Shown: positions 11,237 through 23,349 of the stretch, piece after piece | How the letters are laid out: each line of letters begins with the position of its first letter | How positions within the stretch are numbered: position 1 is the stretch's first letter | Source of the DNA: Bacteroidia bacterium | GTDB taxonomy: Bacteria; Bacteroidota; Bacteroidia; AKYH767-A; OLB10 | Direction: 5' to 3' | Assembly: GCA_044341715.1 (NCBI GenBank) | Contig: JBIIRF010000001.1 | Span: 1 to 28,209 of the forward strand | DNA: 28,209 bases | Position numbers and translations under genes: made by a program | The notes under the pieces: generated by a model | The model's database searches: none | Told to the model about the DNA's origin: nothing | What the model saw: the letters and a program-made list of their open reading frames with translations, nothing else

Positions 11237-12610
11237 TTATTTCCCAACTCCGTATTCGCTGAGAATCCAGGCGAGTGCGGCCATGCTTGCTGCTCCAAGC
11301 TCGAGTTCGCGTTTGTTGATTTTGTCAAACGTATCCGTCTCGGCATGGTGTACATCAAAATACCGTTGTGAATCGGGACTGAATCCAATCAGCAATGTGC
11401 CTTGCTTTTCCATGTGATTGATATCTGCTCCTCCATATCCCGGACGCCAGTCGCGTAATAAATACGGATACAACATTTCCTGATGTTTCATGATACCCTG
11501 CATCATCAGTGAATCGCCTTTGAATGTAAATCCGCGCGGTGTAAATCCACCGGCATCACTTTCAATAGCGGCGATATGTTTGCGGCCCGACTTTGCTGCT
11601 TCCTCTGCGTACTTCGCTCCACCACGTCCTCCGTTTTCTTCATTCATAAATGCTACGCAGCGAATGGTCCGTTTCGGTCGCAAGCCAAGTGCTTTCATTA
11701 CACGTATCACTTCCATCGATTGCACCACACCGGCGCCATCATCATGTGATCCATCACCTGTATCCCATGCGTCGAGGTGTCCGCCTACTACAATGACTTC
11801 ATTCGGAAATTCAGTGCCGGTAATTTCTGCAATGACATTGTACGATAAGGTATCAGGCAATGTACTGCATGACTGACGAAAACCGACTTTCGTTCCCGGC
11901 TCTATTTTAAGCGTCTTGCTGAGTAATTCTGCACCGCGTGTACTGATCGCACAGGCCGGAATTTTTGTGATCGCTGAATCATATCCCATCGCACCGGTAT
12001 GCGGATTATCATCGAGTGAGAGTGTCATAGAACGAACAATCACTCCAATGGCACCTAGTTTAGCCGCACGCATGGCCGTTCCCCAGCGATACTTGGCCGC
12101 TTCACCATACGCTTCAAACGTATTGATGAACTCCGGCTTCATCGGATGGTTCATGAAAACAATATTTCCCTTGATCCGCTCTGTGCCGATTTTTTCCATC
12201 TCTTCCCAGTCACGTACCTCGACAACATTACCCGAAATACCGGAAGGAGGAGAGGCAATACTTCCACCCAGTGCACAAATACGCAATGGAGTTTTATTGC
12301 CTTTGGCTTCGATCCATGCTTCTTCTTTTCCGCCACGTACCCAATGAGGAACCATGACATCCTGCAGAAGAACAGAGTCGGCACCCAGTTTCTTTAATTC
12401 CATGCGGACATAATCTACAGCCTGCGCTGCTTCTTTCGAGCCACTCAGTCTTCCGCCAATACGGTTGCTGAGATAATCGAGCCAGGAATAAGATTTACCG
12501 TTGTTCAGAATGTCATCGTAAATTCGACGAATAGTGAGCGAATCTGTTGTTTGAGCTTTCGCAACCGAAGCAAACAAGCAGAGCGCGGCAATGCAGGAGC
12601 AGATTTTCAT
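11237..12610 (-). CDS. M28 family peptidase with PA domain (carboxypeptidase Q-like), secreted
   Basis: Signal peptide ending AKA|Q and zinc-ligand motifs GGHLDAWD, DDGAG, EENG, ESD and HHAETD. Confidence 0.92.
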   Translation of the reverse strand: MKICSCIAALCLFASVAKAQTTDSLTIRRIYDDILNNGKSYSWLDYLSNRIGGRLSGSKEAAQAVDYVRMELKKLGADSVLLQDVMVPHWVRGGKEEAWIEAKGNKTPLRICALGGSIASPPSGISGNVVEVRDWEEMEKIGTERIKGNIVFMNHPMKPEFINTFEAYGEAAKYRWGTAMRAAKLGAIGVIVRSMTLSLDDNPHTGAMGYDSAITKIPACAISTRGAELLSKTLKIEPGTKVGFRQSCSTLPDTLSYNVIAEITGTEFPNEVIVVGGHLDAWDTGDGSHDDGAGVVQSMEVIRVMKALGLRPKRTIRCVAFMNEENGGRGGAKYAEEAAKSGRKHIAAIESDAGGFTPRGFTFKGDSLMMQGIMKHQEMLYPYLLRDWRPGYGGADINHMEKQGTLLIGFSPDSQRYFDVHHAETDTFDKINKRELELGAASMAALAWILSEYGVGK

Positions 12611-12641
12611 AGAGAGACATGGCAGAATGGCTACCGTCCCT

Positions 12642-12649
12642 CAAAAATA
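12642..12649 (-). promoter_or_regulatory. Candidate -7 element (TATTTTTG) for the M28 peptidase
   Basis: TAnnTTTG match 31 nt upstream of the ATG. No properly spaced -33 element. Confidence 0.3.
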
Positions 12650-12665
12650 AATCTTTTCAGCAAAC

Positions 12666-13754
12666 TCAGGCTTTTACTGCACGATCATATAATCGACCAC
12701 CCATCCGACCGTATAACAAAGCCAGCCAGGACATGCTCAGTGTATTCATTGTCAGCATTCCAAGACAAACCGACAGAATAATAAAACTATTCATATCAAT
12801 CTTCGGAAAAAGAATGGCGATACCAACGTACATGAGATTAAATCCGGCAATCATCACGGTTGTCATGCGCTGACCGAATCCTTGTCCAACCATCATATGA
12901 TGCACATGGTTGCGATCGGGATGAAATGGTGAGTAGCCGGTGATGATTCGAATGACCGATACACGCAGCACATCGTACAATGGTACAAACAGCACCGCAG
13001 CAATGAGCGCAGGAGTAAGTGCAGGTACATCTGAAACGCCATGCGTAAAATGCTGGAACAAGGCAATCGCTTGTACAGAGAGTAAAAATCCAAGTACCAG
13101 TGAACCGGTATCTCCCATAAATATTTTAGCAGGATGGAAATTATAAATCAGGAATCCGAACACAGCGCCACAAATACTGAATGACAACATCGCCATTGTA
13201 ATATCACCGGCTTGCAGGAACAGAATTCCAAAGATCATACTCGACATCAACATCAGACTACCCGCAAGACCATCCAGACCGTCAATCAGGTTCAGTGCAT
13301 TGGTCACAGCAATGATGAATACAATCGTCACCATCCACGATACCGCATCCGGCAATTCACCAATACCACAGAATCCATACAAACTTTCGATGCGGAAACC
13401 GGCAAGGATCACCAGAATACTCGCCACAAACTGTAACACGAGTTTACGCGATGGTTTCAAGTCGATCAGATCGTCGAAGAATCCGGTGAAGAATAACAAC
13501 ACCATGCCTGCAACCAACTGCGCTGCGTTATGGCCGGGCATATCACCTACGAATGCGAGAAAACTGACAGCAATACCGGCGAATATAGAGATACCTCCCA
13601 TGGTAGGGATGTTCTCCTTATGACGTTTCCGGTCATCTGTCTTCTCAAATAAATTCCACTTCGCACACACTCTTATCCACGCAGGAATAAGAACCGTTGT
13701 CGTCAACATCGCAGCAATGCTGCTCATAATAATTAATAAAGAATTCGAAAGCAT
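12666..13754 (-). CDS. wecA: WecA/TagO-like undecaprenyl-phosphate GlcNAc-1-phosphate transferase (MraY family)
   Basis: PTMGGI, GFFDDLIDL, NALNLIDGLDG, IFMGDTGS and HVHHM; polytopic membrane protein. Confidence 0.92.
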   Translation of the reverse strand: MLSNSLLIIMSSIAAMLTTTVLIPAWIRVCAKWNLFEKTDDRKRHKENIPTMGGISIFAGIAVSFLAFVGDMPGHNAAQLVAGMVLLFFTGFFDDLIDLKPSRKLVLQFVASILVILAGFRIESLYGFCGIGELPDAVSWMVTIVFIIAVTNALNLIDGLDGLAGSLMLMSSMIFGILFLQAGDITMAMLSFSICGAVFGFLIYNFHPAKIFMGDTGSLVLGFLLSVQAIALFQHFTHGVSDVPALTPALIAAVLFVPLYDVLRVSVIRIITGYSPFHPDRNHVHHMMVGQGFGQRMTTVMIAGFNLMYVGIAILFPKIDMNSFIILSVCLGMLTMNTLSMSWLALLYGRMGGRLYDRAVKA

Positions 13755-13762
13755 GATCCCAA

Positions 13763-15844
13763 TTATTGTTTCTCTTTTCTAATAATATGTACTTCTACTC
13801 TTCTGTTCCGTTGTTTTCCTTCGTCGGAGACATTGTCGCGGATCGGCATATTTTCACCGTAGGCGACAGTTGTAATACGTTCTTCAGGAAGTCCCTTTTT
13901 CATGAAGATGGCTTTCACCACATCGGCTCTCGATTGGGAGAGATGCATGTTGAATGGTGCGTCTCCTTCGCTGTCGGTATGTCCTGTGATCACCAGCATC
14001 ATCGAATTGTTTTCCAGCAATGAATCCAGCGCCGGTTCAATGATGTCGAGCTTATACAAGCCATGGACTTCTGCACTTCCTGTTTTAAATTCTATATTTC
14101 CAATATGCTCTGCGGATGAAGTTCCTGCTTCTGCAATACTTTTCTCCGTAGCGCAACCATTATTTTCTTTTGATCCTGCTACCATCGGACACTGATCATC
14201 GGTATCAGGGATGCCGTCTTTATCTGTGTCGGGACAACCACCTGTTCCGGGTTCTCCTTTCATGTAAGGACATTTATCCTGGCTGTCTGTGATTCCGTCA
14301 CCATCCGCATCGGGCATAGTTACTGTAGTTGGAACGGATGTTTCTTCCTCAGGTTTCAAATCAGGGAGTCCCGCAGTAAGATTTTTACCATTCCCTTCCG
14401 GACGCAATTCAGGAACAGCAACTTTCACTTTGGCTACGTTCTTTCTTGGCACCAATAATGTGATAGCAGATTTATCAGTTTCCAGCTCATCCGGAATTTC
14501 ACGGACAGGTATAGAAGCAGATTTGATCGCTTTTGTTGTAACAGGTTGTGGTTTATTTACCACCGGCATTGTTACGGGTGATACTTTTCGTATTGGCGCT
14601 AACGTTATATTCTCTGCTGGTGCAGCAGGTGCAGGTTTCGCAGCCGCTTTCGGAGCTGTACCCGCCGGAGTAGCTGGTTTAGCAGGAGCCGGTTTGGTCA
14701 CCGGTTTTCCTACAGGTTTAGCTGCCGGTGCAGGAGTACTTCCTGTTGGTTTTCCGGTTTCCGGTTTTTTCGTTTCTGCAGGCTGGCTTTGTACCGGTGT
14801 AGAATTCGACGATGTTACCGGAACTTTTGAGGCAGTAGATGACTTTTTATCGTCCTTCTTCGCTTCCTTCGCCGGCTTCTGCTTTTTCTTTTCTTCTTCT
14901 TTTTTCGGACGTGCTTTCGGAATATAGGTCAGGGAAATTTCGAAGGCTCCGGGTCCGCCTGTAGCTCCGGAGATATTGATATCATAACTGATACCGGCCA
15001 TGAAACTGTTCCATTGGTATCCGGTGTAGAGTGCGATAGCATCATTATTGCGGAAGATGATTCCTCCTTCGAGGTTGTTACGGTCTTCCATCGGGAGACG
15101 TATCATCACACTGCTGATAAACTCCTGTGCAAACTGCTGCTTTGAAAACTGCACTGCAGGAGTGATCGTCCAGTCGTTTTTCATCACAAAACCGGCTCCC
15201 GCATTGGCCGTAATTTTTCGCGGAATAAAATTGTTCTGCTCGATATAACTTTCTTTCGGCTGATTGAGGTGTTGTACAGAAATTCCGGCAAATGGGAATA
15301 CACTGTTCTTTCCCTTTTTACCGTATGTCCAGAGGAAACCCAAGCCAAAATCAGGTCGTGTAAGTTTGGTATAGCTGAATGATTCGCTTGTAGGATTAGA
15401 CGGATCAAAACCATTGTCGGGTGTGTACTGATCATCAAAGGTCATCTTCGATGGATCAAAACTTTTCTGAATAAATCCGATTTGTAATCCGGAGGCGAGC
15501 ATGTGTCGTCCGAATGCATGGCGATAACTGAGTTGTCCGTTCAGGAACATTTGTCGCATTCCTGATTCGCCGGCGGTATTATTGACAATGTTTGCACCGA
15601 AGCCAACTTTGCTGACTTGTTTATCAAAGAAAACGCCTTCGGTCTTGAACGGACTCATCACACTCGACCATTGATTCCGGTATAACATAGTTAAGCGGAT
15701 ATGCTCTACGTTATGTCCGCTCGCCGCAGGGTTGTACCAGGTTGGAATCCGATGTGCCTGCGTGAAGTGAGGATCCTGCGCATAGCCTATCATCCCCACA
15801 AGGAGGAGAAGGAATAAACCGATGATGGAATATTGTCTGCGCAT
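13763..15844 (-). CDS. PorP/SprF family T9SS outer-membrane barrel fused to a K/P/A-rich linker, TSP3-like repeats and an OmpA C-terminal domain
   Basis: QDPHFTQ...WYNPAASG...YRNQWS N-terminus; barrel ending FEISLTYIP; linker of about 200 aa; DADGDGITDSQDKCP/DTDKDGIPDTDDQCP; GHTDSEG...LSQSRA...YGE...NRRVE. Confidence 0.9.
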   Translation of the reverse strand: MRRQYSIIGLFLLLLVGMIGYAQDPHFTQAHRIPTWYNPAASGHNVEHIRLTMLYRNQWSSVMSPFKTEGVFFDKQVSKVGFGANIVNNTAGESGMRQMFLNGQLSYRHAFGRHMLASGLQIGFIQKSFDPSKMTFDDQYTPDNGFDPSNPTSESFSYTKLTRPDFGLGFLWTYGKKGKNSVFPFAGISVQHLNQPKESYIEQNNFIPRKITANAGAGFVMKNDWTITPAVQFSKQQFAQEFISSVMIRLPMEDRNNLEGGIIFRNNDAIALYTGYQWNSFMAGISYDINISGATGGPGAFEISLTYIPKARPKKEEEKKKQKPAKEAKKDDKKSSTASKVPVTSSNSTPVQSQPAETKKPETGKPTGSTPAPAAKPVGKPVTKPAPAKPATPAGTAPKAAAKPAPAAPAENITLAPIRKVSPVTMPVVNKPQPVTTKAIKSASIPVREIPDELETDKSAITLLVPRKNVAKVKVAVPELRPEGNGKNLTAGLPDLKPEEETSVPTTVTMPDADGDGITDSQDKCPYMKGEPGTGGCPDTDKDGIPDTDDQCPMVAGSKENNGCATEKSIAEAGTSSAEHIGNIEFKTGSAEVHGLYKLDIIEPALDSLLENNSMMLVITGHTDSEGDAPFNMHLSQSRADVVKAIFMKKGLPEERITTVAYGENMPIRDNVSDEGKQRNRRVEVHIIRKEKQ

Positions 15845-18792
15845 TATTTAATGACCGTGATTGGTCCGTTTAATTCCTGTGATTGATTTTCCTGATTGCT
15901 GATTTTAATCCGGTAGAGATAGGTGCCGTTTTGTACGGTGACACCATTCACTGTTCCATCCCATTCGGGGCGTGCACTGTCGGTGGTATAGATCAAGGTT
16001 CCCCATTGATCATAAATCCGCATTTCTTCGAGACGGAATTGCTCGCCACGTACACGGAACACATCATTTTTACCATCTCCATTAGGCGTAAATGTGGTAG
16101 GCACGAATGCAGGGAGATTAATACCGATGTACACTGTTTTTATAAGTGTATCTGTACAACCGAGTGCATTCGCTGTAATTAGTGTTACTGTATAATTTCC
16201 CTCCAGCGGATAGGTAAACTGCGGATCAATCTGCTGTGATGTATTTCCGGGGATTGTAGTATCTCCGAAAATCCAGTAAACAGTAGCGGGATTTATAGTT
16301 GTGCAATTAAAGGTAGTTGTGAATTGTCCGCTCTGTGAACTTACATTGTAGGTAAATGTAGCAGCCGGAATTGCAAACACATTGACATTTACATCCAAAC
16401 GCGCCGGAGAAATACAGCCAAAGCCGTTCATCGCTTCCACGTAATAAGTCGTGTTGGTTGTTAGTGCTGGTGTAGTGTATGAAAGTGATGATGCCAGTAA
16501 ATTACCTGCAGTGTATTCATCGTACCATTTATAAGTGAGACCGGGTTCTGGAACGACACTCAGTTGCACTGCATTTCCTTTACATACTGAAGTATCAGCA
16601 GCCTGCGGAACATCCGGATTGCGATACACTTTTATCAGCGTAGAATCGGAGTACATCCAATTACCACCCTGGAAAACGGCGACATAATACCAACCGCTAT
16701 CTACCGCTACATACTGCGATCCCGTAGCGCCGGTAACCGGAAGTCCTTCGTAGTACCATTGATTCCCCGTTGGAAAAACAGAACTTAATACCACACTTTC
16801 TCCTTCACAAAAACTGACAGGACCCAGTGCCGTAATAATGTTTGAACTATTAATCAGCGTAACAGTAACTGCGGCTGATGATGATGTACATCCATTTGCA
16901 TTGGTGGTTGCTACAGTATAGGTTCCTCCTGTTGTAACATTGAGCGTACTACCGGTGATACCGTTCGACCAGGTATAAGCTGATCCGCCGGATGCGGTTA
17001 GTGTTAAAGTATCACCCTGAATCAACATTACTGCTCCGGAGGGTGTAACGGAAGGCGTAACGGTTGAATAAACTGCAATGCTTTGTACGGTTGATTGATC
17101 TGTACAGCCACCTGTTCCGGTCACGGTTACAGAGTAGTTTCCTTGTCCAACTGTTATACTTTGTGTATTGGCTCCATTCGACCATAGCCATGCACTTCCT
17201 GCAGATGCAGTGAGGACCGTAGTTTTTCCCGGACAAACAGTATCCGTTGATGCAGTAATAGTTGCTACAGGGGCTGCCTGTACCGTAATACTAATCGGTG
17301 CTGAACTTCCCACACAACCATTGCTGTTAGTTACTGATACCGTAAATGAGCCTGCAGTATTTACCACGATCGACTGAGCAGTTGAGCCATTCGACCAGCT
17401 ATAAGCAGTACCTGTGGTTGCTGTAAGTGTAATAGAAGCGCCATCACAAATTGCTGTTCCTGCGCTGCTGGTAATTGTCGGACTAAACGACGGATATACG
17501 GTAACGTTAAGTGTATTGGAGCTTGCTGTCGCACCCGAAGCATCAAAGGCGATTGCAGTCAATGTATGATTCCCTTGTGTCAATCCGTTTACGGTTACGT
17601 TACCGTTCGCGGAAGTTCCAAGGGTTTGTCCGTTCTCGAGAATAGTATAATTGTACAATCCTGCAGGAGAAATGGTAAAGGAAGCGGGAGCACCGGCACA
17701 AATTGCACTGCCACCGGAAATACTCAGTGTTAATGTAGTTGTAGAAATAGCAGTCACCCGACGAACAGTATGATTACCATTATCACCCACCCATAAATTT
17801 CTTCCTGAGCGGTTATAGGCAATTCCTGTCGGCATTTTGAACTTCGCTGCGATTCCATTGCCATCAACTGCTCCCTGCTGACCACTCGCTCCCACATAGG
17901 TAGAAACGGTAGCAGTTGTCAGATTAATTTTTCGAATTGTATTGGTAATGACATCGGCCACAAAAAGATTATTCAATGTATCTGCTGCAACTGCTGAAGG
18001 ATAGTTAAACGAAGCAGAAAGTGCAGGACCATTCACATCACCCGGAATTCCATTACCGGCAATCGTTGAAACTGTTCCCACCGGAGTCATCATACGGATC
18101 TGACAATTCCATTCGTCGGTGATAATCAGATTTCCGTTTGACAACATCGTCAGTCCATACGGATGATTAAATGTTGCTGCTGTTCCTGTACCATTCGCAT
18201 TGCCGGAGACAAAAACTGTTCCCGCCACGGTAGTCACCTGACCGGCGTTCAGTTTACGAATGGTATGTGTATTATAATCTGAAATATAAATCGTACTTCC
18301 ATCGCGTGTTACTGCAATGCCTGCAGGAAATCCAAAACGGGCAGTAGCGGCAGGACCATTTGTTGTACCAAACACACCGGTACCGGCAAGTGTAGTCACA
18401 TTCCCCGTTGCATCGATTTGACGTACTTTATAGTTTTTTGTATCGGCTACATAGAGATTTCCCAGTGTATCGATCGCGATACCCCAGGGCTCATTAAAAG
18501 AAGCATTCAATCCCTGACCATCGGTACTTCCTGCCACACCGCTGCCGGCAAAAGTTGAAACCACACCCGAAGCAGAAATTTTCCGGATACGATGATTCAA
18601 CCGATCGGCCACATAAACGTTTCCGTTTTTATCCGCCACCAATGAGTGCGGCTCATTGAATCGTGCTGCAGTACCTGTTCCATCCGTTGATCCTGTACTA
18701 CCTGCCAAACCGGCAATAGTCACCACTTGCTGAGCAAAAGCATTGCCCGCAGCAGTCAATATCAGGAACAGAATGAGTACTCTTTTCATCAT
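15844..18792 (-). CDS. T9SS type-B cargo: six NHL repeats, about six Ig-like modules, a PKD domain and a gliding-motility-associated (CHU_C) C-terminal domain
   Basis: Signal peptide ending FA|Q; six AG...G...A.F..P.G repeats; WSNG Ig modules; WIFGD (PKD); FTPNGDGKND...WDGT...GTYLY CTD. Confidence 0.92.
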   Translation of the reverse strand: MMKRVLILFLILTAAGNAFAQQVVTIAGLAGSTGSTDGTGTAARFNEPHSLVADKNGNVYVADRLNHRIRKISASGVVSTFAGSGVAGSTDGQGLNASFNEPWGIAIDTLGNLYVADTKNYKVRQIDATGNVTTLAGTGVFGTTNGPAATARFGFPAGIAVTRDGSTIYISDYNTHTIRKLNAGQVTTVAGTVFVSGNANGTGTAATFNHPYGLTMLSNGNLIITDEWNCQIRMMTPVGTVSTIAGNGIPGDVNGPALSASFNYPSAVAADTLNNLFVADVITNTIRKINLTTATVSTYVGASGQQGAVDGNGIAAKFKMPTGIAYNRSGRNLWVGDNGNHTVRRVTAISTTTLTLSISGGSAICAGAPASFTISPAGLYNYTILENGQTLGTSANGNVTVNGLTQGNHTLTAIAFDASGATASSNTLNVTVYPSFSPTITSSAGTAICDGASITLTATTGTAYSWSNGSTAQSIVVNTAGSFTVSVTNSNGCVGSSAPISITVQAAPVATITASTDTVCPGKTTVLTASAGSAWLWSNGANTQSITVGQGNYSVTVTGTGGCTDQSTVQSIAVYSTVTPSVTPSGAVMLIQGDTLTLTASGGSAYTWSNGITGSTLNVTTGGTYTVATTNANGCTSSSAAVTVTLINSSNIITALGPVSFCEGESVVLSSVFPTGNQWYYEGLPVTGATGSQYVAVDSGWYYVAVFQGGNWMYSDSTLIKVYRNPDVPQAADTSVCKGNAVQLSVVPEPGLTYKWYDEYTAGNLLASSLSYTTPALTTNTTYYVEAMNGFGCISPARLDVNVNVFAIPAATFTYNVSSQSGQFTTTFNCTTINPATVYWIFGDTTIPGNTSQQIDPQFTYPLEGNYTVTLITANALGCTDTLIKTVYIGINLPAFVPTTFTPNGDGKNDVFRVRGEQFRLEEMRIYDQWGTLIYTTDSARPEWDGTVNGVTVQNGTYLYRIKISNQENQSQELNGPITVIK
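16961..17397 (-). repeat. Three diverged tandem Ig-like modules with a 213-bp period
   Basis: The motif cc(a/g)ttcgacca (W-S-N-G on the minus strand) occurs at 16961, 17174 and 17387, each 213 bp apart. Confidence 0.8.
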
Positions 18793-19982
18793 GCAGCCTC
18801 GACAGTTTGTTTAGGAAGGTTCAATTCAATCTGCTCCACCTGACGCTCCGACATTTCATTCAGCAGTTCACGATACGAAGGATCCTGACCGGTGAATGCC
18901 GCTGCGTAGAGCGAAGTAATCCGCTTCCAGGTATAATATCTGCGACCATATTGTTCCATCTCCGCTCCCATGCGTTGTTGCTCGATTGGCGTTAAGCGGT
19001 TCAATTGCTCGAGTAATTCTGATTCATTGTTAAAATAACGGGCGCGGTGATTGGTGGTCTCGCGGTTATACGAAACACCATAGCTGATGATTGGTAAACC
19101 CAGACACATTGCTTCCACCAGACTCGGGTTGGTTCCGCCTGCACTATGTCCGTGCACATAGACGGCAGCGTTAGAACGGATTTCATTCAACTGATCCTGA
19201 TCGTAAATCGGATCCAGCAGATGAATGTTCGGATAGTTGCTATACTTCGCACGCAATTCCATTCCGTAAGGACCATGATTCCACAGACCCACAATCACCA
19301 GATTCTTTTCCGGAGCACGACTAAACGCATCCAGAATCATGTGAATATTATTCTCCGGTTCAATGCGGCTCACATTAAAAGCATAAGGCTCCTGCAGAAA
19401 AGGATACTTCGCAAGTACGGCATCCGTCAATGGAAGTTTCTTCACGTGATCGCCACCGTATTCAATCAGCCATGTATTTTCACAATGATATTCCCGCTCC
19501 ACATACTGCTGAATGATTTTATTATCCGTAATCACTTTATCCGCAAAAGCCACCGCCAGTTTTTCACTCCAGCCTAGAACTTTCCGCGAGATCCAGTTCC
19601 ACTTCGGACGTTTCCATTCTTGTCCATCGATGTTCACCAGAATCGGCTTCTTCGTAAACATCTTCAGGAAAGGAAGCAATACCGCTCCCGAAACACCCAA
19701 CAACAACAGCACATCGTTGCGACGCACTGCATGCAGGATAGAAAGAATATCATAAGGAATACTCTGATACCCGTTCGCATTCAGCGGCAGGTATTCGAGT
19801 TTTGCACCATTGTAATTTTCGAGACGTTTTCCCGGCTTACCGAAATACTTGCTACTGCAGTACACGGTCATATCAAAATCATTCGAGAGATTATTCACCA
19901 GGTGATGAGCCAGCGTTTCAAAGCCGCCGTAACGGGCCGGTAATCCTGTTGTTCCAATCACTGCTACACGGATCTTCTTCAT
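18789..19982 (-). CDS. GT4 glycosyltransferase with DUF1972-like N-terminus (WchF/RgpA-like, putative rhamnosyltransferase)
   Basis: AVIGTTGLPARYGGFET, NIDGQEWKRPKW, SRIEPENN and HGHSAGGTNPSLVEAM. ATGA overlap with the next gene. Confidence 0.9.
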   Translation of the reverse strand: MKKIRVAVIGTTGLPARYGGFETLAHHLVNNLSNDFDMTVYCSSKYFGKPGKRLENYNGAKLEYLPLNANGYQSIPYDILSILHAVRRNDVLLLLGVSGAVLLPFLKMFTKKPILVNIDGQEWKRPKWNWISRKVLGWSEKLAVAFADKVITDNKIIQQYVEREYHCENTWLIEYGGDHVKKLPLTDAVLAKYPFLQEPYAFNVSRIEPENNIHMILDAFSRAPEKNLVIVGLWNHGPYGMELRAKYSNYPNIHLLDPIYDQDQLNEIRSNAAVYVHGHSAGGTNPSLVEAMCLGLPIISYGVSYNRETTNHRARYFNNESELLEQLNRLTPIEQQRMGAEMEQYGRRYYTWKRITSLYAAAFTGQDPSYRELLNEMSERQVEQIELNLPKQTVEAA

Positions 19983-20058
19983 TCTGCAAATGGGTTTTCT
20001 TTGCTTGTTAGAATTTACAGGCATTTGAGACGGCCTGCGATACTAAAGTTGTACGGTT

Positions 20059-20240
20059 CCTTACAGTGTAAGGTTCTTTTAAAAAAGAAAGGAGTTAAGG
20101 GTGGTTCTTGCATCTTCCCGTCGACGTTTAACCGCCTAAAACGGACACTCACCGAAACATTTTTCAGGAACTGTACTCTTTTCAGTGAATTAGGAAATAC
20201 TCCTTACGAAAAAAGTGAGCAAAATGCACTAAAACCTTAC
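20059..20240. promoter_or_regulatory. Internal intergenic regulatory region with repeated CCTTAC/GTAAGG half-sites
   Basis: Palindrome CCTTACA-G-TGTAAGG (20059-20073), CCTTAC at 20202 and 20235, and AGGA-N5-TCCT at 20192-20204. Confidence 0.4.
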
Positions 20241-20259
20241 AAAAATCTGTGACCTTGTT

Positions 20260-21345
20260 TTAGAAATTTTTCAGGATCGATTCCGTGAATTTCCGGTTAC
20301 TAAACTGCTTCGATGTTTCCTTTGCACCTTCACTCAGGGCCGATAAAAATCCGGGGTTTTCTGCGAGGTATTGCAGACGAAAATCGAGTGTTGCTTCGTC
20401 ACGTACATCGATGGTAAAACCATTCACCGAACCTTTCACAATTTCAGCCGGACCACCTACCGGAGGAGCAATCACAGGCACACCGTAACACATCGCTTCC
20501 AGGATGGTCATACCGAATGTTTCAATGCATTGTCCGGGATTGGTCAGATTCACCACCAGCGAAGCAGCACGGTAAAACGGATCCAGGTTTTTCTGCACCG
20601 GATACCATGTAAGGTTTGCGGGAATTACCTCGCGGGAGAAATAAAGTTCAATATCTTCCGGCTGTGCATTCAGCACCAAATCGAAATGGAGTCCGGGATG
20701 GCGACGCGCAAGGGCCACAAACTCCGGAATTCCTTTATAATCTTTTAACGAACAAACCATGAGCACCCTGAACTTTTCTGTTTGTCCGGGGAGATAGGAG
20801 AACTGACCCGCATTCGCTACAAATTCTTCCGGCAGGGCGTTGTACACCACCTGGCTGTTAACTCCATGAATACGTTCTTCCCGCAGGAGATAATCGGACA
20901 CATACAAGACGGTATCGGCAGTATAAGCAGCAACAGTGCGTAGGAATTTTTTCAAAGCTGCAGGACGAATATAACTCTCATGCACATGATAAATCACTTT
21001 CTTGCCCATCATCGCACCGGCAATCGCTGCACCGAAAGGAAGAATGGTATTGATATAAAATGTGACATCCTTCTTCCGGTATCTCCAGAGCTGAAAAAAG
21101 AGAAATACCTGACTAAATGTAAAGGCCAGCAACCGCATCAATGTATTCGGAAAAAACCGATACGGAAAACTCACAAAGGGAGCATCCACGGAATTCAGAA
21201 AACCTTCCTTCTTGCCGCTGGTATGGATCACTACCGAATGTCCCGACTGTTGTAATCCCTTTAACGCTTGCGTAAATACCAGAGGACTACCACTGAAATC
21301 ATTCAGCAGATGAATTGCAACAATCGTATTTTTCTTCTCCGACAT
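20260..21345 (-). CDS. GT4 family glycosyltransferase
   Basis: SLKDYKGI and ETFGMTILEAMCYGVPVI (EX7E motif). Confidence 0.92.
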   Translation of the reverse strand: MSEKKNTIVAIHLLNDFSGSPLVFTQALKGLQQSGHSVVIHTSGKKEGFLNSVDAPFVSFPYRFFPNTLMRLLAFTFSQVFLFFQLWRYRKKDVTFYINTILPFGAAIAGAMMGKKVIYHVHESYIRPAALKKFLRTVAAYTADTVLYVSDYLLREERIHGVNSQVVYNALPEEFVANAGQFSYLPGQTEKFRVLMVCSLKDYKGIPEFVALARRHPGLHFDLVLNAQPEDIELYFSREVIPANLTWYPVQKNLDPFYRAASLVVNLTNPGQCIETFGMTILEAMCYGVPVIAPPVGGPAEIVKGSVNGFTIDVRDEATLDFRLQYLAENPGFLSALSEGAKETSKQFSNRKFTESILKNF

Positions 21346-21349
21346 TTTA

Positions 21350-22606
21350 TCAGCCGGCTTTACGGGTCAGGTTTTCATAGAGATCTTTCAGGCGTTCACC
21401 TTTCAGATCCCAATCAAATCGTTCCTTGAAGGTACGACGTGCACCCTCCGACAACTTCACGTATAAACGGGTATTGTCGTGCAGGAGACGCAATGCCTCT
21501 GCAAACTTGGTAACGCTCGTATTATAACGGCTATACGGTACCGAAATACCACAATCCTTATTTACAAACTCTCCCGGACCTTCATTGCGGAAACATACCA
21601 CCGGTAAACCGTACGACAATGCCTCTGCAACTACCATTCCCGCACCTTCATGACTCGGGAACAGGAATACATCCGACTCGTTGTAGAGTTTTTTATAATC
21701 ACTGCGATGCAACCAGGCGATGAACGTAACACATTCTGCCACCTCCATTTCTTCGGCCAGGTTTTCGAGATACTTTTTATACGGACCATCGCCCACTAAA
21801 ACCAGACGCACAAACGGACGCTGATGCACTGGAAGCTGATGATAAAACCGCGCAAAGGAACGAATGGTAATATCAAAACCTTTCAGCGGAACAAATCTAC
21901 CACTCGATAAAATGGTAAATCCTTGTCCCTTTCTTCCTTCAGGTAACTCTGTTGGTGCTTCGGTACTCACACTCGACATATGCAGCACTTTATCCCGCGA
22001 TACATCCAGTACACGTTCCACTCCTGAATTCATTGCAATAACTGTGTCTGCATGAGAAACTGTCTGACGCAGCAATGGATCTATCTTCCAGAAATATTTT
22101 TTCAATCCCCACTTCATCTCCTCCAGCAAATACGTCTTCCAGCCATACACGTGCAATACATAATCCTTAGGAATACGCGGATGGTGACCAATCGGGCCCC
22201 ATACAAAGGGTTTGCGCAAACGCCAGAGCATAGAAGGTGTCCAGTCGTTATGGAAATTCAGGTTATGCACTATATCAAACTCCAGTTTGTTCTTGCGCAC
22301 AAAACGCGGCATGAAAATCTGCCAGAGGTAATAATACAACAACGCACCACGACCGCCCTTTTTCCAGAAGCGAGCCCAGTAGGGTAAGTCATAATAGACA
22401 AATTTCACATTGGCATAACAGGGATTCGGATGCTCCGCCATGTATCGTTCGATCGGTCCACGGGTATTTTCGCGGGTGATCGCAATTACTTTATTGAAAC
22501 GTGCGATCTGCAGGATAAAATTCCATCCCATGCCATCTTCCGAACCATGATAAGGATTCACAGCATAAGCACTCACCAATACGGTATTTTCTTTTCTATT
22601 CTCCAT
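21350..22606 (-). CDS. GT4 family glycosyltransferase
   Basis: SAYAVNPYHGSEDGMGW, GRFVPLKG and PSHEGAGMVVAEALSYG. The start is placed at MENRKE, after the upstream TAG. Confidence 0.92.
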   Translation of the reverse strand: MENRKENTVLVSAYAVNPYHGSEDGMGWNFILQIARFNKVIAITRENTRGPIERYMAEHPNPCYANVKFVYYDLPYWARFWKKGGRGALLYYYLWQIFMPRFVRKNKLEFDIVHNLNFHNDWTPSMLWRLRKPFVWGPIGHHPRIPKDYVLHVYGWKTYLLEEMKWGLKKYFWKIDPLLRQTVSHADTVIAMNSGVERVLDVSRDKVLHMSSVSTEAPTELPEGRKGQGFTILSSGRFVPLKGFDITIRSFARFYHQLPVHQRPFVRLVLVGDGPYKKYLENLAEEMEVAECVTFIAWLHRSDYKKLYNESDVFLFPSHEGAGMVVAEALSYGLPVVCFRNEGPGEFVNKDCGISVPYSRYNTSVTKFAEALRLLHDNTRLYVKLSEGARRTFKERFDWDLKGERLKDLYENLTRKAG

Positions 22607-22617
22607 CTTCTCTTTCA

Positions 22618-23349
22618 CTAAGCTACACATCCTTGCTGATGCGTAGTATTGGATTGTTCAGTTCTGTATTTTATTACTCTCGCCGGCATACCACCTACTA
22701 CGGCATTGGCAGGCATACTTTTCGTCACCACTGCACCCGCAGCTATCACACAATTGTCACCGATAGTTACTCCATCCAAAATCGTCACCTTCGCGCCGAT
22801 CCAGCAGTTTTTACCGATAACAATTCCTTTACGTTCTGTACCCTGCAAACGAATCAGCTGCTGTTCATCGAAGAAGCGATGATTCTCCGGATGACAACTG
22901 AGGTAGGGACCAATAATACAATCATCGCCGATCTCGAGTCCGCCTGCACCACCGAGGTGTGCATACTCACCCAGTCCTACATGATGACCGATACGGATAT
23001 ACTTTCCCGGATCATTCAGCGAGAAAGAAACCTTGAGATAGGAATGACTGCCGATCCAGCTATAATCACCGATAGACAATCCTTCACGACCCCAGGCGGT
23101 AATGCTCACATCGTTTCCTAACTGCACCGCCTTACCGAACTGCGCCGATGAAGTGCCACTGATAGAAACACGTTTACCGGCAAACAGCAACAACGACCGT
23201 TTCGCCCGCAGGAATTGCAGACCCCGTAACCAGGCGCAGACCTTCCCCCATAAAAATCCGAACAGGACACCCTCTTTTACAGCGGGGTCCAGTTCGAACG
23301 AAGGATTTTTCTTTCGTCCCAGATGGGTGATAATCGTTCGCAGCAGCAT
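22618..23349 (-). CDS. Hexapeptide-repeat O-acyltransferase (LbetaH)
   Basis: IGDDCIIG, IGKNCWIGAKVTILDGVTIGDNCVIAAGAVV. The start overlaps the upstream stop (TAATG). Confidence 0.92.
   Translation of the reverse strand: MLLRTIITHLGRKKNPSFELDPAVKEGVLFGFLWGKVCAWLRGLQFLRAKRSLLLFAGKRVSISGTSSAQFGKAVQLGNDVSITAWGREGLSIGDYSWIGSHSYLKVSFSLNDPGKYIRIGHHVGLGEYAHLGGAGGLEIGDDCIIGPYLSCHPENHRFFDEQQLIRLQGTERKGIVIGKNCWIGAKVTILDGVTIGDNCVIAAGAVVTKSMPANAVVGGMPARVIKYRTEQSNTTHQQGCVA

What the first reader, a model, noticed from the sequence alone, without database searches (positions are those of the whole stretch)
13763..15844. PorP/SprF barrel fused to a periplasm-spanning linker and an OmpA peptidoglycan-binding domain
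Seen: one uninterrupted 693-aa ORF with a PorP/SprF-type N-terminus, about 200 aa of Lys/Pro/Ala/Thr-rich linker (approx. 14320-14910), two TSP3-like Ca-binding repeats (approx. 14150-14312) and OmpA_C. Known: PorP/SprF proteins are usually stand-alone barrels of about 300 aa that partner type-B CTD cargo, and PorP has been linked to the OmpA-domain protein PorE. Inference: a Rosetta-stone fusion combining the cargo shuttle/anchor and the cell-wall tether. It would fix its cargo in place rather than letting it move as SprB does.
Basis: partly seen in the sequence, partly recalled or inferred. Interest (0 to 1): 0.72.

Follow-up and report, generated by a model that had tools for sequence, protein, structure and literature searches.

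The report
Wall-tethered type IX secretion carrier barrel
This gene encodes an outer-membrane carrier for one secreted surface protein, fused through a floppy leash to a cell-wall-binding domain; it is a natural one-protein version of an anchoring scheme so far only proposed for separate proteins, common in one uncultured Bacteroidota family but never studied.

Summary
Window 13763-15844, minus strand, is one intact 693-aa ORF. It has a signal peptide and a PorP/SprF barrel (Pfam 2e-41; 14 strands in the model). A 197-aa disordered Lys/Pro/Ala/Thr-rich linker follows, then two TSP3 repeats and an OmpA_C domain with intact peptidoglycan-contact residues. Its start overlaps the stop (TAATG) of a 982-aa type-B-CTD cargo, a stalked NHL-propeller protein.

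The fusion is no artefact and no rarity. 98 clusters at 90% identity share it, and it occurs in most genomes of the window's family. Cargo and carrier are lost or decay together.

Related stand-alone carriers, in this genome and in Solitalea koreensis, sit in cargo / PorP-like / PorE-like modules. Published work (PMC9143113, PMC12618676) proposes that such trios hold static cargo on the cell wall. This protein is a single-chain counterpart. However, its wall-binding module comes from an OmpA-porin-type lineage, not from PorE, and PorE is still present. It lacks SprF's track-linking CxC tail.

Other barrels gained OmpA or SPOR tails independently. Immobilisation of the cargo is inferred, not shown. 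I found no paper describing the fusion. The scan has noted the same architecture in about 20 other genomes.

The parts
13763..15844 (-). Whole gene: 693-aa PorP/SprF-linker-TSP3-OmpA_C fusion (carrier/anchor)
   Evidence: ORF list and translation; Pfam and NCBIfam domains
15779..15844 (-). Signal peptide, residues 1-22 (hydrophobic core, ...GYA|QDP); no lipobox Cys
   Evidence: Read from the translation; helix 2-19 in the model; Q23 and D24 invariant in the alignment
14924..15784 (-). PorP/SprF outer-membrane barrel, residues 21-307; 14 strands at residues 48-307
   Evidence: PF11751 E 2.2e-41, TIGR03519 above cut-off; AF2 model with 14 strands at pLDDT about 80-93; best structural matches are the 14-stranded barrels OmpG, FadL and 8gl6_F
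14321..14911 (-). Disordered, cationic Lys/Pro/Ala/Thr-rich linker, residues 312-508
   Evidence: pLDDT below 50 over residues 322-506; composition and charge; length 65-334 aa in the 49-sequence alignment, 16-361 aa by motif search
14153..14314 (-). Two thrombospondin type-3 (Ca-binding) repeats, residues 511-564, containing the protein's only four Cys
   Evidence: PF02412; alignment to 5wtl TSP3 repeats; Asp and Cys conserved in 36-42 of 49 homologs
13778..14113 (-). OmpA_C-like peptidoglycan-binding domain, residues 578-689
   Evidence: PF00691 E 7.4e-16; model pLDDT 84-94; TM 0.84-0.87 and rmsd 1.2-1.5 A to A. baumannii OmpA-like domain with bound peptidoglycan peptide, 3td3/3td5
13928..13975 (-). 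Peptidoglycan-contact positions D624, N632 and R639 within GHTD...N...LSQSRA
   Evidence: Motifs found; R639 49/49, D624 42/49, N632 37/49 in homologs. By spacing they correspond to OmpA D271/R286 (own knowledge) and PorE D576/N584 (PMC12773672)
15842..15846 (-). TAATG: cargo stop codon overlaps the carrier start codon (translational coupling)
   Evidence: Sequence read; 4-nt ATGA-type overlaps in orthologous loci
15844..18792 (-). Cognate cargo: 982-aa six-bladed NHL propeller (residues 20-350), chain of Ig-like domains, PKD, type-B CTD
   Evidence: Pfam and NCBIfam; AF2 model with mean pLDDT 83.9; Foldseek hits to NHL domains (TM 0.86-0.89) and the GhpA Ig-like filament
15847..16104 (-). Type-B C-terminal secretion/anchoring domain of the cargo, residues 897-982
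   Evidence: PF13585 CHU_C E 8.1e-19; TIGR04131 61.7 bits, cut-off 35
12666..13754 (-). WecA-like sugar-phosphate transferase, 8 nt downstream; conserved neighbour
   Evidence: PF00953 and TIGR02380-like; gap read; found next to the carrier in 8 of 10 loci from other genera and in all genus loci examined
18789..20024 (-). DUF1972/GT1 glycosyltransferase overlapping the cargo start; conserved in the genus and in 3 of 10 other-genus loci

Best explanation
The gene encodes the dedicated type IX secretion carrier for the NHL-propeller/Ig-stalk protein encoded just upstream. Its 14-stranded PorP/SprF barrel takes the cargo's type-B C-terminal domain from the translocon and holds the cargo on the cell surface; this step is inferred from family membership and gene pairing. 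Both ends of an even-stranded barrel face the periplasm. From the C-terminal end runs a roughly 200-residue disordered, positively charged leash, then two Ca-binding TSP3 repeats and an OmpA_C domain that binds peptidoglycan non-covalently. Domain identity, fold and contact residues are shown here; binding itself is inferred. The surface protein is thereby coupled mechanically to the cell wall and kept off the gliding track. The result is a static, load-bearing anchor, equivalent in one chain to the proposed cargo / PorP-like / PorE-like complex. The leash leaves slack, and it does not act as a rigid lock.
For: Both domains score well above curated cut-offs. The model shows 14 strands, a disordered linker and a confident OmpA_C domain that superposes on peptidoglycan-peptide-bound OmpA. 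R639, D624 and N632 are conserved. No Cys follows the barrel, and 0 of 55 homologs have a CxC tail; SprF needs CxC to bond to GldK on the track (PMC12635249). The genus has GldJ and many SprB-repeat proteins, so a track exists to stay off. Cargo and carrier are translationally coupled, syntenic in 21 loci down to 33-42% identity, confined to the same family, and co-absent (G002) or co-decayed (G018, G021). Unfused cargo / PorP-like / PorE-like modules occur in the own genome and in Solitalea. None of the genes identified beside a fused carrier is PorE-like. Published work proposes wall anchoring of static type-B cargo through PorP-like/PorE-like pairs and shows that Fjoh_3952 is static. Other barrels independently gained OmpA or SPOR tails.
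Against: There is no experiment on any member. Peptidoglycan binding, cargo binding and immobility are all inferred. The linker varies about 20-fold in length and is long enough (my estimate: tens of nm contour length) to allow considerable lateral freedom. OmpA_C binding is non-covalent and reversible. Six of the 49 aligned homologs have Tyr in place of D624, and one lineage (G149) has a degenerate OmpA end. In G010 and G011 the barrel ORF is intact but the tether is frameshifted, so the tether may be dispensable. PorE is still encoded, so the tether is not a simple substitute for it.
Confidence: 0.65

Rival explanations
1. The tether acts during secretion, not afterwards. It positions the carrier near the translocon or PorK/N structures, or gives a fixed point against which the cargo-carrier complex is pulled out, as PorE is needed for secretion in P. 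gingivalis. Final immobility of the cargo would be a by-product or absent.
For: The OmpA_C domain of PorE is essential for T9SS secretion itself (PMC12773672). The PorE-PorP complex is proposed to anchor the PorK/N rings (PMC9143113). The long, variable leash suits reaching a partner more than clamping.
Against: Core PorE and a PorK-linked PorP are encoded separately in the same genome. This carrier is strictly paired with a single cargo and is lost together with it, which is not the behaviour of a core machine part. In G010 and G011 the barrel is kept while the tether is broken.
Confidence: 0.17
2. It is mainly an envelope staple, an OmpA-like outer-membrane-to-wall connector whose barrel happens to be of the PorP/SprF type. 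The pairing with the cargo is secondary.
For: The architecture mirrors classical OmpA (barrel plus periplasmic OmpA_C). The C-terminal half is 42% identical to the genome's own TSP3-OmpA protein and matches the Capnocytophaga OmpA periplasmic portion at E 5e-61.
Against: The genome has other TSP3-OmpA proteins for that role. The gene is absent or decayed in several healthy-looking relatives, always together with the cargo. It is translationally coupled to the cargo. The barrel scores as a T9SS carrier.
Confidence: 0.1
3. The fusion is an annotation or assembly artefact: two genes joined by a missed stop or frameshift in the low-complexity linker.
For: Frameshifts do occur in this linker in some relatives (G010, G011, G008, G018). 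The window comes from a fragmented, 77%-complete metagenome-assembled genome.
Against: 98 clusters from four independent sources, and 16 of 24 family genomes, carry the uninterrupted fusion. The piece downstream of the frameshift in G010 has no signal peptide, so it cannot work alone. Barrel-only close relatives number only four or five, as fragments or frameshifted forms.
Confidence: 0.02

Closest known systems
PorP-PorE-PG1035 complex of Porphyromonas gingivalis (PMC9143113; PorE C-terminal domain structure 6top, PMC7192894)
   Same: A PorP-family barrel binds a type-B CTD protein and is linked to peptidoglycan through an OmpA_C-like domain.
   Different: There the OmpA_C domain sits on a separate lipoprotein that also has TPR, beta-propeller and CRD domains. 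PorP is the single core carrier and also contacts PorK. Here the OmpA_C domain is in the same chain, is of the TSP3-OmpA porin type (PorE model 34.7 bits against a cut-off of 600; 6top TM 0.62 against 0.84-0.87 for OmpA), and the barrel is an accessory carrier dedicated to one cargo.
Flavobacterium johnsoniae Fjoh_3952 / Fjoh_3951 / Fjoh_3950 and the other type-B cargo / SprF-like / PorE-like operons (PMC12618676, PMC9143113)
   Same: A dedicated cargo-carrier pair with a wall-binding partner. The cargo was shown to be static and proposed to be wall-anchored. The same three-gene layout occurs in this genome (C86) and next to the nearest named stand-alone relative in Solitalea.
   Different: That system has three genes and a PorE-like partner. 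In this system the third gene is missing and its function is built into the carrier through a disordered leash.
SprF, carrier of the mobile gliding adhesin SprB (PMC12635249)
   Same: Same barrel family, the same gene order (cargo then carrier), and the same role in export and surface retention of a type-B cargo.
   Different: SprF has a short periplasmic tail with an invariant CxC that disulfide-bonds to GldK on the moving track. This protein has no Cys there and carries a wall anchor instead.
Bacteroidota OmpA, e.g. Capnocytophaga gingivalis OmpA periplasmic portion (PDB 5wtl)
   Same: The C-terminal TSP3 repeats plus OmpA_C module match at E 5e-61, with the same Cys and Asp pattern.
   Different: The membrane part is a 14-stranded T9SS carrier barrel where OmpA has its own barrel. 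There are two TSP3 repeats compared with several in 5wtl, and a 200-aa disordered linker is inserted.

Membership tests
PorP/SprF family T9SS membrane proteins (PF11751 / TIGR03519) | Full-length match to the family models above the curated cut-offs | tested here: met
   PF11751 142.7 bits (cut-off 22.3), profile positions 3-273 of 273; TIGR03519 170.6 bits (cut-off 90.55)
PorP/SprF family T9SS membrane proteins (PF11751 / TIGR03519) | 14-stranded outer-membrane beta-barrel with an N-terminal signal peptide | tested here: met
   AF2 model has 14 strands at residues 48-307. 14 strands are stated for SprF in PMC9143113. No solved PorP/SprF chain was available for direct comparison
PorP/SprF family T9SS membrane proteins (PF11751 / TIGR03519) | Encoded next to, and needed by, a type-B CTD cargo | tested here: inconclusive
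   Adjacency, coupling, co-distribution and co-loss are met. The requirement for secretion is not testable here
SprF-type mobile adhesin carriers | Periplasmic C-tail with an invariant CxC that bonds to GldK Cys343 | tested here: not met
   The only Cys are at residues 525, 537, 552 and 564, inside the TSP3 repeats; 0 of 55 homologs have CxC within 60 aa after the barrel
OmpA_C-like peptidoglycan-binding domains (PF00691) | Model match, beta-alpha-beta-alpha-beta-beta fold, and Asp/Arg contacts for the peptide stem | tested here: met
   58.7 bits (cut-off 27.2); TM 0.84-0.87 to 3td3/3td5; D624 and R639 present, R639 invariant
OmpA_C-like peptidoglycan-binding domains (PF00691) | Actual binding to peptidoglycan | not testable with these tools
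   Needs a pull-down with purified sacculi
PorE family (NF052230) | TPR + beta-propeller + CRD + OmpA_C lipoprotein; full-length model match | tested here: not met
   34.7 bits against a cut-off of 600, over residues 607-667 only; no lipobox. A genuine PorE is encoded elsewhere (C107, 592 bits)
Thrombospondin type-3 Ca-binding repeats (PF02412) | DxDxDGxxDxxDxCP motif repeats | tested here: met
   29.4 bits (cut-off 25); two repeats aligned to 5wtl; Asp and Cys conserved in 36-42 of 49 homologs

The most novel reading that the evidence does not exclude
Self-anchoring type-B carriers are a distinct and repeatedly evolved class. They include the f1-type OmpA fusion, a second OmpA fusion and the SPOR-tailed clade. 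The carrier barrel itself would transmit load from a stalked surface protein to the sacculus through a flexible cationic leash, without needing a PorE-like partner. If so, wall coupling would be the general rule that separates static from track-driven type-B cargo. In this family the anchored protein would also be functionally tied to the WecA-initiated glycan made by the same operon.
Probability: 0.4. Interest if true: 0.6.

Novelty: new variant of a known kind. Interest (0 to 1): 0.45.

Why it matters
[quoted passage not shown] The wall-anchoring model rests on one pull-down in P. gingivalis, on gene adjacency and on imaging of one cargo in F. johnsoniae. Natural fusions of the carrier barrel to peptidoglycan-binding domains give independent comparative evidence that carrier and wall anchor work together, because they arose more than once and with different wall-binding folds. 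They also suggest a clean experiment: graft or remove the tether and watch cargo mobility. The protein belongs to an uncultured lineage, so for now its direct value is as a design and a hypothesis.

Tried and rejected
(1) The fusion replaces PorE. Rejected: PorE-model matches occur in all 41 genomes (23 reach the curated cut-off), including a near-full-length 592-bit match in the own genome.

(2) G010, G011 and G008 show a natural two-gene form. Rejected. The barrel ORF in G010 ends in an out-of-frame Arg-rich tail. The sensible Lys/Pro/Ala reading lies in a third frame, so at least two frameshifts are present, and the OmpA piece has no signal peptide. G008 and G018 contain stops.

(3) The fused module derives from a PorE-like protein. 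Rejected on identity and domain content.

(4) All OmpA-fused barrels have a single origin. The AU test rejects this (p 0.0048), with a long-branch caveat for P0259. A second AU test, for monophyly of the 23 f1-type rows, did not finish; three short-linker members remain unresolved in the tree.

(5) A solved PorP/SprF structure for comparison. None was found by sequence, and none appeared in the Foldseek top 50.

Neighbourhoods were taken from genome handles instead.

(7) Kulkarni 2019 (PMC6755757), the source for the porP-like/porE-like adjacency, is not held. Five literature searches found no description of a single-chain PorP-OmpA fusion. The library lacks most subscription journals, so this is not proof of absence.

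(8) The SPOR-type barrel in a Cytophagales genome has no adjacent cargo, so it gives no help on cargo pairing.

(9) A complex model of the barrel with the cargo CTD could not be run, because the structure tool takes single chains only.
Full report
**Observation.** The ORF list shows one uninterrupted 693-aa frame at 13763..15844 on the minus strand.

- Pfam places PorP_SprF at residues 21-307 (E 2.2e-41), TSP_3 at 512-527 and OmpA at 609-681 (E 7.4e-16).
- NCBIfam TIGR03519 (PorP/SprF family) scores 170.6 bits against a cut-off of 90.55. The PorE model scores only 34.7 bits against 600 and covers the OmpA core alone.
- The linker is 197 aa with P 32, K 31, A 26, T 20 and net charge +16. The protein's only cysteines are the four in the TSP3 repeats.

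**Anatomy.** An AlphaFold2 model built on 49 fused homologs (alignment A1) gives three parts.

- Residues 48-307 form fourteen beta-strands at pLDDT about 80-93.
- Residues 322-506 have pLDDT below 50.
- Residues 510-690 form a confident TSP3/OmpA_C module at pLDDT 84-94.

Fourteen strands is the number published for SprF (PMC9143113). An even strand number puts both barrel ends in the periplasm; this is an established rule for outer-membrane barrels and an inference here.

- Foldseek superposes the OmpA_C part on the Acinetobacter OmpA-like domain with bound peptidoglycan peptide (3td3/3td5; TM 0.84-0.87, rmsd 1.2-1.5 A). The PorE C-terminal domain 6top reaches only TM 0.62.
- The barrel's best structural matches are the 14-stranded barrels OmpG and FadL and a chain of the T9SS complex 8gl6.
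- By sequence, the C-terminal 194 residues match the periplasmic TSP3+OmpA_C portion of Capnocytophaga gingivalis OmpA (5wtl) at E 5e-61. No solved chain matches the barrel.

The peptidoglycan-contact positions are present: D624 and R639 in GHTD...LSQSRA, plus N632. The D-to-N spacing equals that of PorE D576/N584, which were shown to matter for PorE function in PMC12773672. In the 49-sequence alignment R639 is kept in 49/49, D624 in 42/49 and N632 in 37/49.

**Not an artefact, not rare.**

- A search of 5.8 billion proteins returns 98 clusters at 90% identity with the same PF11751+PF00691 (usually +PF02412) architecture, 420-848 aa long. They come from NCBI, JGI, ENA and Logan and are named at most 'PorP/SprF family T9SS membrane protein'.
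- In the 50%-identity library, roughly 60-70 representatives carry the fusion, down to about 33% identity (domain content confirmed for five of them).
- Of 24 relatives in the window's family (f1), 16 have an intact single-frame ortholog and five have a disrupted one (G008, G010, G011, G018, G021). One is cut by a contig end, and two have none found (G002 at 97% completeness, G016 at 71%).
- In an even sample of 401 genomes from 199 genera of the class, the ortholog appears in 8 of 9 f1 genomes, or 7 of 8 without the unpublished G220. It appears in none of the other families at E<=1e-45; those genomes have only 337-351-aa stand-alone barrels.
- Barrel-only proteins close to the fused clade number just four or five, as fragments or frameshifted forms. 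The next short relatives are at or below 37% identity.

**The apparent split forms.** In G010 the barrel ORF ends in an Arg-rich tail, which is the Lys/Glu-rich linker read out of frame. The sensible linker reading lies in a third frame, so at least two frameshifts separate barrel and OmpA. The OmpA piece has no signal peptide. These are decayed or mis-assembled tethers and not a designed two-gene form.

**The partner cargo.**

- The upstream 982-aa ORF ends with a type-B CTD (CHU_C E 8e-19; TIGR04131 above cut-off). Its stop codon overlaps the carrier's start as TAATG.
- Its model (mean pLDDT 83.9) shows a six-bladed NHL propeller at residues 20-350, a chain of Ig-like domains, a PKD domain and the CTD.
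- The propeller matches TRIM and Thin NHL domains at TM 0.86-0.89. The Ig-like chain matches the Aureispira grappling-hook protein GhpA. This is a stalked, adhesin-like surface protein.
- Cargo and carrier are adjacent in all 21 orthologous loci examined, across eleven genera (counting the window's own) and down to 33-42% carrier identity. A WecA-like transferase and usually an M28 peptidase follow.
- The full-length cargo is confined to family f1 (24 of 24 genomes give a match). Neither gene was found in G002, and both are broken in G018 and G021.

This is the pattern expected of a dedicated pair.

**The unfused counterpart.** The own genome has five PorP/SprF matches, and only this one is fused.

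- Two of the others sit directly upstream of GldK-like and GldJ genes.
- One follows a type-B cargo at a contig end.
- One, on contig C86, lies in a cargo / PorP-like (326 aa) / PorE-like module.

The nearest named stand-alone relative of the fused barrel, in cultured Solitalea koreensis, sits in the same kind of tight module: a 1629-aa cargo with 13 Ig_7 domains and CHU_C, a 330-aa barrel, and a 673-aa PD40+OmpA protein. Of the genes identified next to the fused carriers, none is PorE-like: they are glycosyltransferases, the WecA-like transferase and the M28 peptidase. A few unassigned ORFs were not scanned against Pfam.

Two qualifications apply.

- PorE itself is still encoded in the own genome (592 bits, nearly full length), and PorE-model matches are found in all 40 relatives.
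- The fused module is 42% identical, TSP3 repeats included, to the genome's own TSP3-OmpA protein. It is only 33% identical, over the OmpA core alone, to PorE-like proteins. The donor was therefore an OmpA-porin-type protein and not PorE.

**What the literature already says.**

- Gorasia et al. 2022 showed the PorE-PorP-PG1035 complex. They noted that six F. johnsoniae porP-like genes lie next to porE-like genes while sprF does not. They postulated that non-mobile type-B proteins are anchored to the wall through PorP-PorE-like complexes.
- Paillat et al. 2025 showed that Fjoh_3952 forms only static foci and proposed a static Fjoh_3952/3951/3950 complex.
- The 2025 Nature Communications study (PMC12635249) showed that SprF's periplasmic tail has an invariant CxC that disulfide-bonds to GldK on the moving track.

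The present protein has no cysteine after the barrel, and none of 55 homologs has a CxC tail. The genus does have GldJ and many SprB-repeat giants, so a track exists from which this carrier is kept apart. I found no paper that describes the single-chain form. One key paper was not held, and most subscription journals are missing from the library.

**Recurrence of the design.** Using a stand-alone paralog as query against longer proteins turned up three further kinds of extended barrel.

- PorP/SprF barrels with C-terminal SPOR domains, another peptidoglycan-binding fold (P0254 and P0256 clearly; two more weakly).
- One barrel with a CarboxypepD_reg domain (P0252).
- A distant second OmpA fusion (P0259), with the TSP3 repeats placed directly after the barrel.

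A tree of 52 barrel domains splits on a branch with 100% support. The f1-type fused clade (20 rows, support 96) lies with the Chitinophagaceae/Solitalea-type stand-alone barrels. P0259, the SPOR clade and the own-genome PorK-linked and PorE-linked barrels lie on the other side. Forcing all OmpA-fused barrels into one clade costs 48.5 log-likelihood units (p-AU 0.0048). The caveats are that P0259 is a long branch and that the test was chosen after seeing the tree. Carrier barrels have thus been joined to wall-binding modules at least two or three times.

**Mechanism and its limits.** Shown here: domain identities, fold, conserved contact residues, disorder of the linker, coupling and co-inheritance with the cargo, absence of the track-linking motif, and existence of unfused modules. 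Inferred: that the barrel binds this cargo's CTD, that the OmpA_C domain binds peptidoglycan, and that the cargo is thereby static.

The linker ranges from 65 to 334 aa in the alignment (16-361 aa by motif search). It is always Lys/Pro/Ala/Thr-rich and net positive, so it behaves as a leash with slack and not as a ruler. By my estimate a 200-residue disordered chain has a contour length of tens of nm. 'Fixes in place' should therefore be read as 'confines and bears load'.

Some lineages carry Tyr at D624, a degenerate OmpA end (G149) or a frameshifted tether, so the tether is not indispensable everywhere.

**Verdict.** This is a real, conserved, uncharacterised subfamily. It is a new variant of a known kind: a type-B carrier with a built-in wall anchor. 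It gives comparative support to a model that is already published but still speculative. The scan has recorded the same architecture, including this same operon and SPOR-tailed variants, in about 20 other genomes. Those notes agree with what I tested here but are not independent evidence.

Noticed in passing
window 11237-22630 (minus strand): The cargo-carrier pair is wedged into a tight run of sugar-polymer genes: three GT4/GT1 genes, then cargo, carrier, WecA-like transferase and M28 peptidase. The gaps are a 4-nt overlap, a 1-nt overlap and 8 nt. Downstream, the WecA-like gene follows in 8 of 10 other-genus loci and the M28 gene in 6 of 10; the upstream GT trio is kept in only 3 of the 10. 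Why a T9SS surface protein stays linked to a glycan-initiating transferase is unexplained.
   Followed up: partly
own genome contig C86 (L001:3-3077): An unfused three-gene module lies in the same genome: type-B CTD cargo, a 326-aa PorP-like barrel and a PorE-like protein (TPR/propeller, 734-aa frame).
   Followed up: partly
own genome contig C79 (L005) and C132 (L002): Two further PorP-like genes lie directly upstream of GldJ (389+61 bits) and of a GldK-like gene. The one before GldJ has a tail with two cysteines (EC...SC) that is not a CxC. Whether it bonds to the track is unknown.
   Followed up: no
P0254, P0256, P0257, P0255 and nine 'long' relatives; L066 (Cytophagales bacterium Alg240-R148): A well-supported clade of PorP/SprF barrels of 560-790 aa carries C-terminal SPOR domains, clear in two and weak or undetected in the rest. 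The L066 copy is an orphan between methionine-synthesis genes and FeoB.
   Followed up: partly
P0252 (551 aa); P0251 (965 aa): P0252 is a PorP/SprF barrel fused to a CarboxypepD_reg domain, a domain also present in PorE. P0251 combines PF11751 with RsmE-type methyltransferase domains and may be a gene-call fusion.
   Followed up: no
L017, L018: Two metagenome-assembled records titled 'Bifidobacterium breve' and 'uncultured Bifidobacterium sp.' carry this Bacteroidota T9SS operon. The bins look mislabelled or contaminated.
   Followed up: no
L064 (G149:C26): In one genus the carrier is only 498 aa and its OmpA end is degenerate (23% identity, no NRRVE motif), while cargo and barrel are intact. 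This may be a natural loss of the tether.
   Followed up: no
window 15844-18792: The cargo's Ig-like stalk gives its best structural matches to the Aureispira grappling-hook protein GhpA, a T9SS-dependent surface filament. Its head is a canonical six-bladed NHL propeller.
   Followed up: partly
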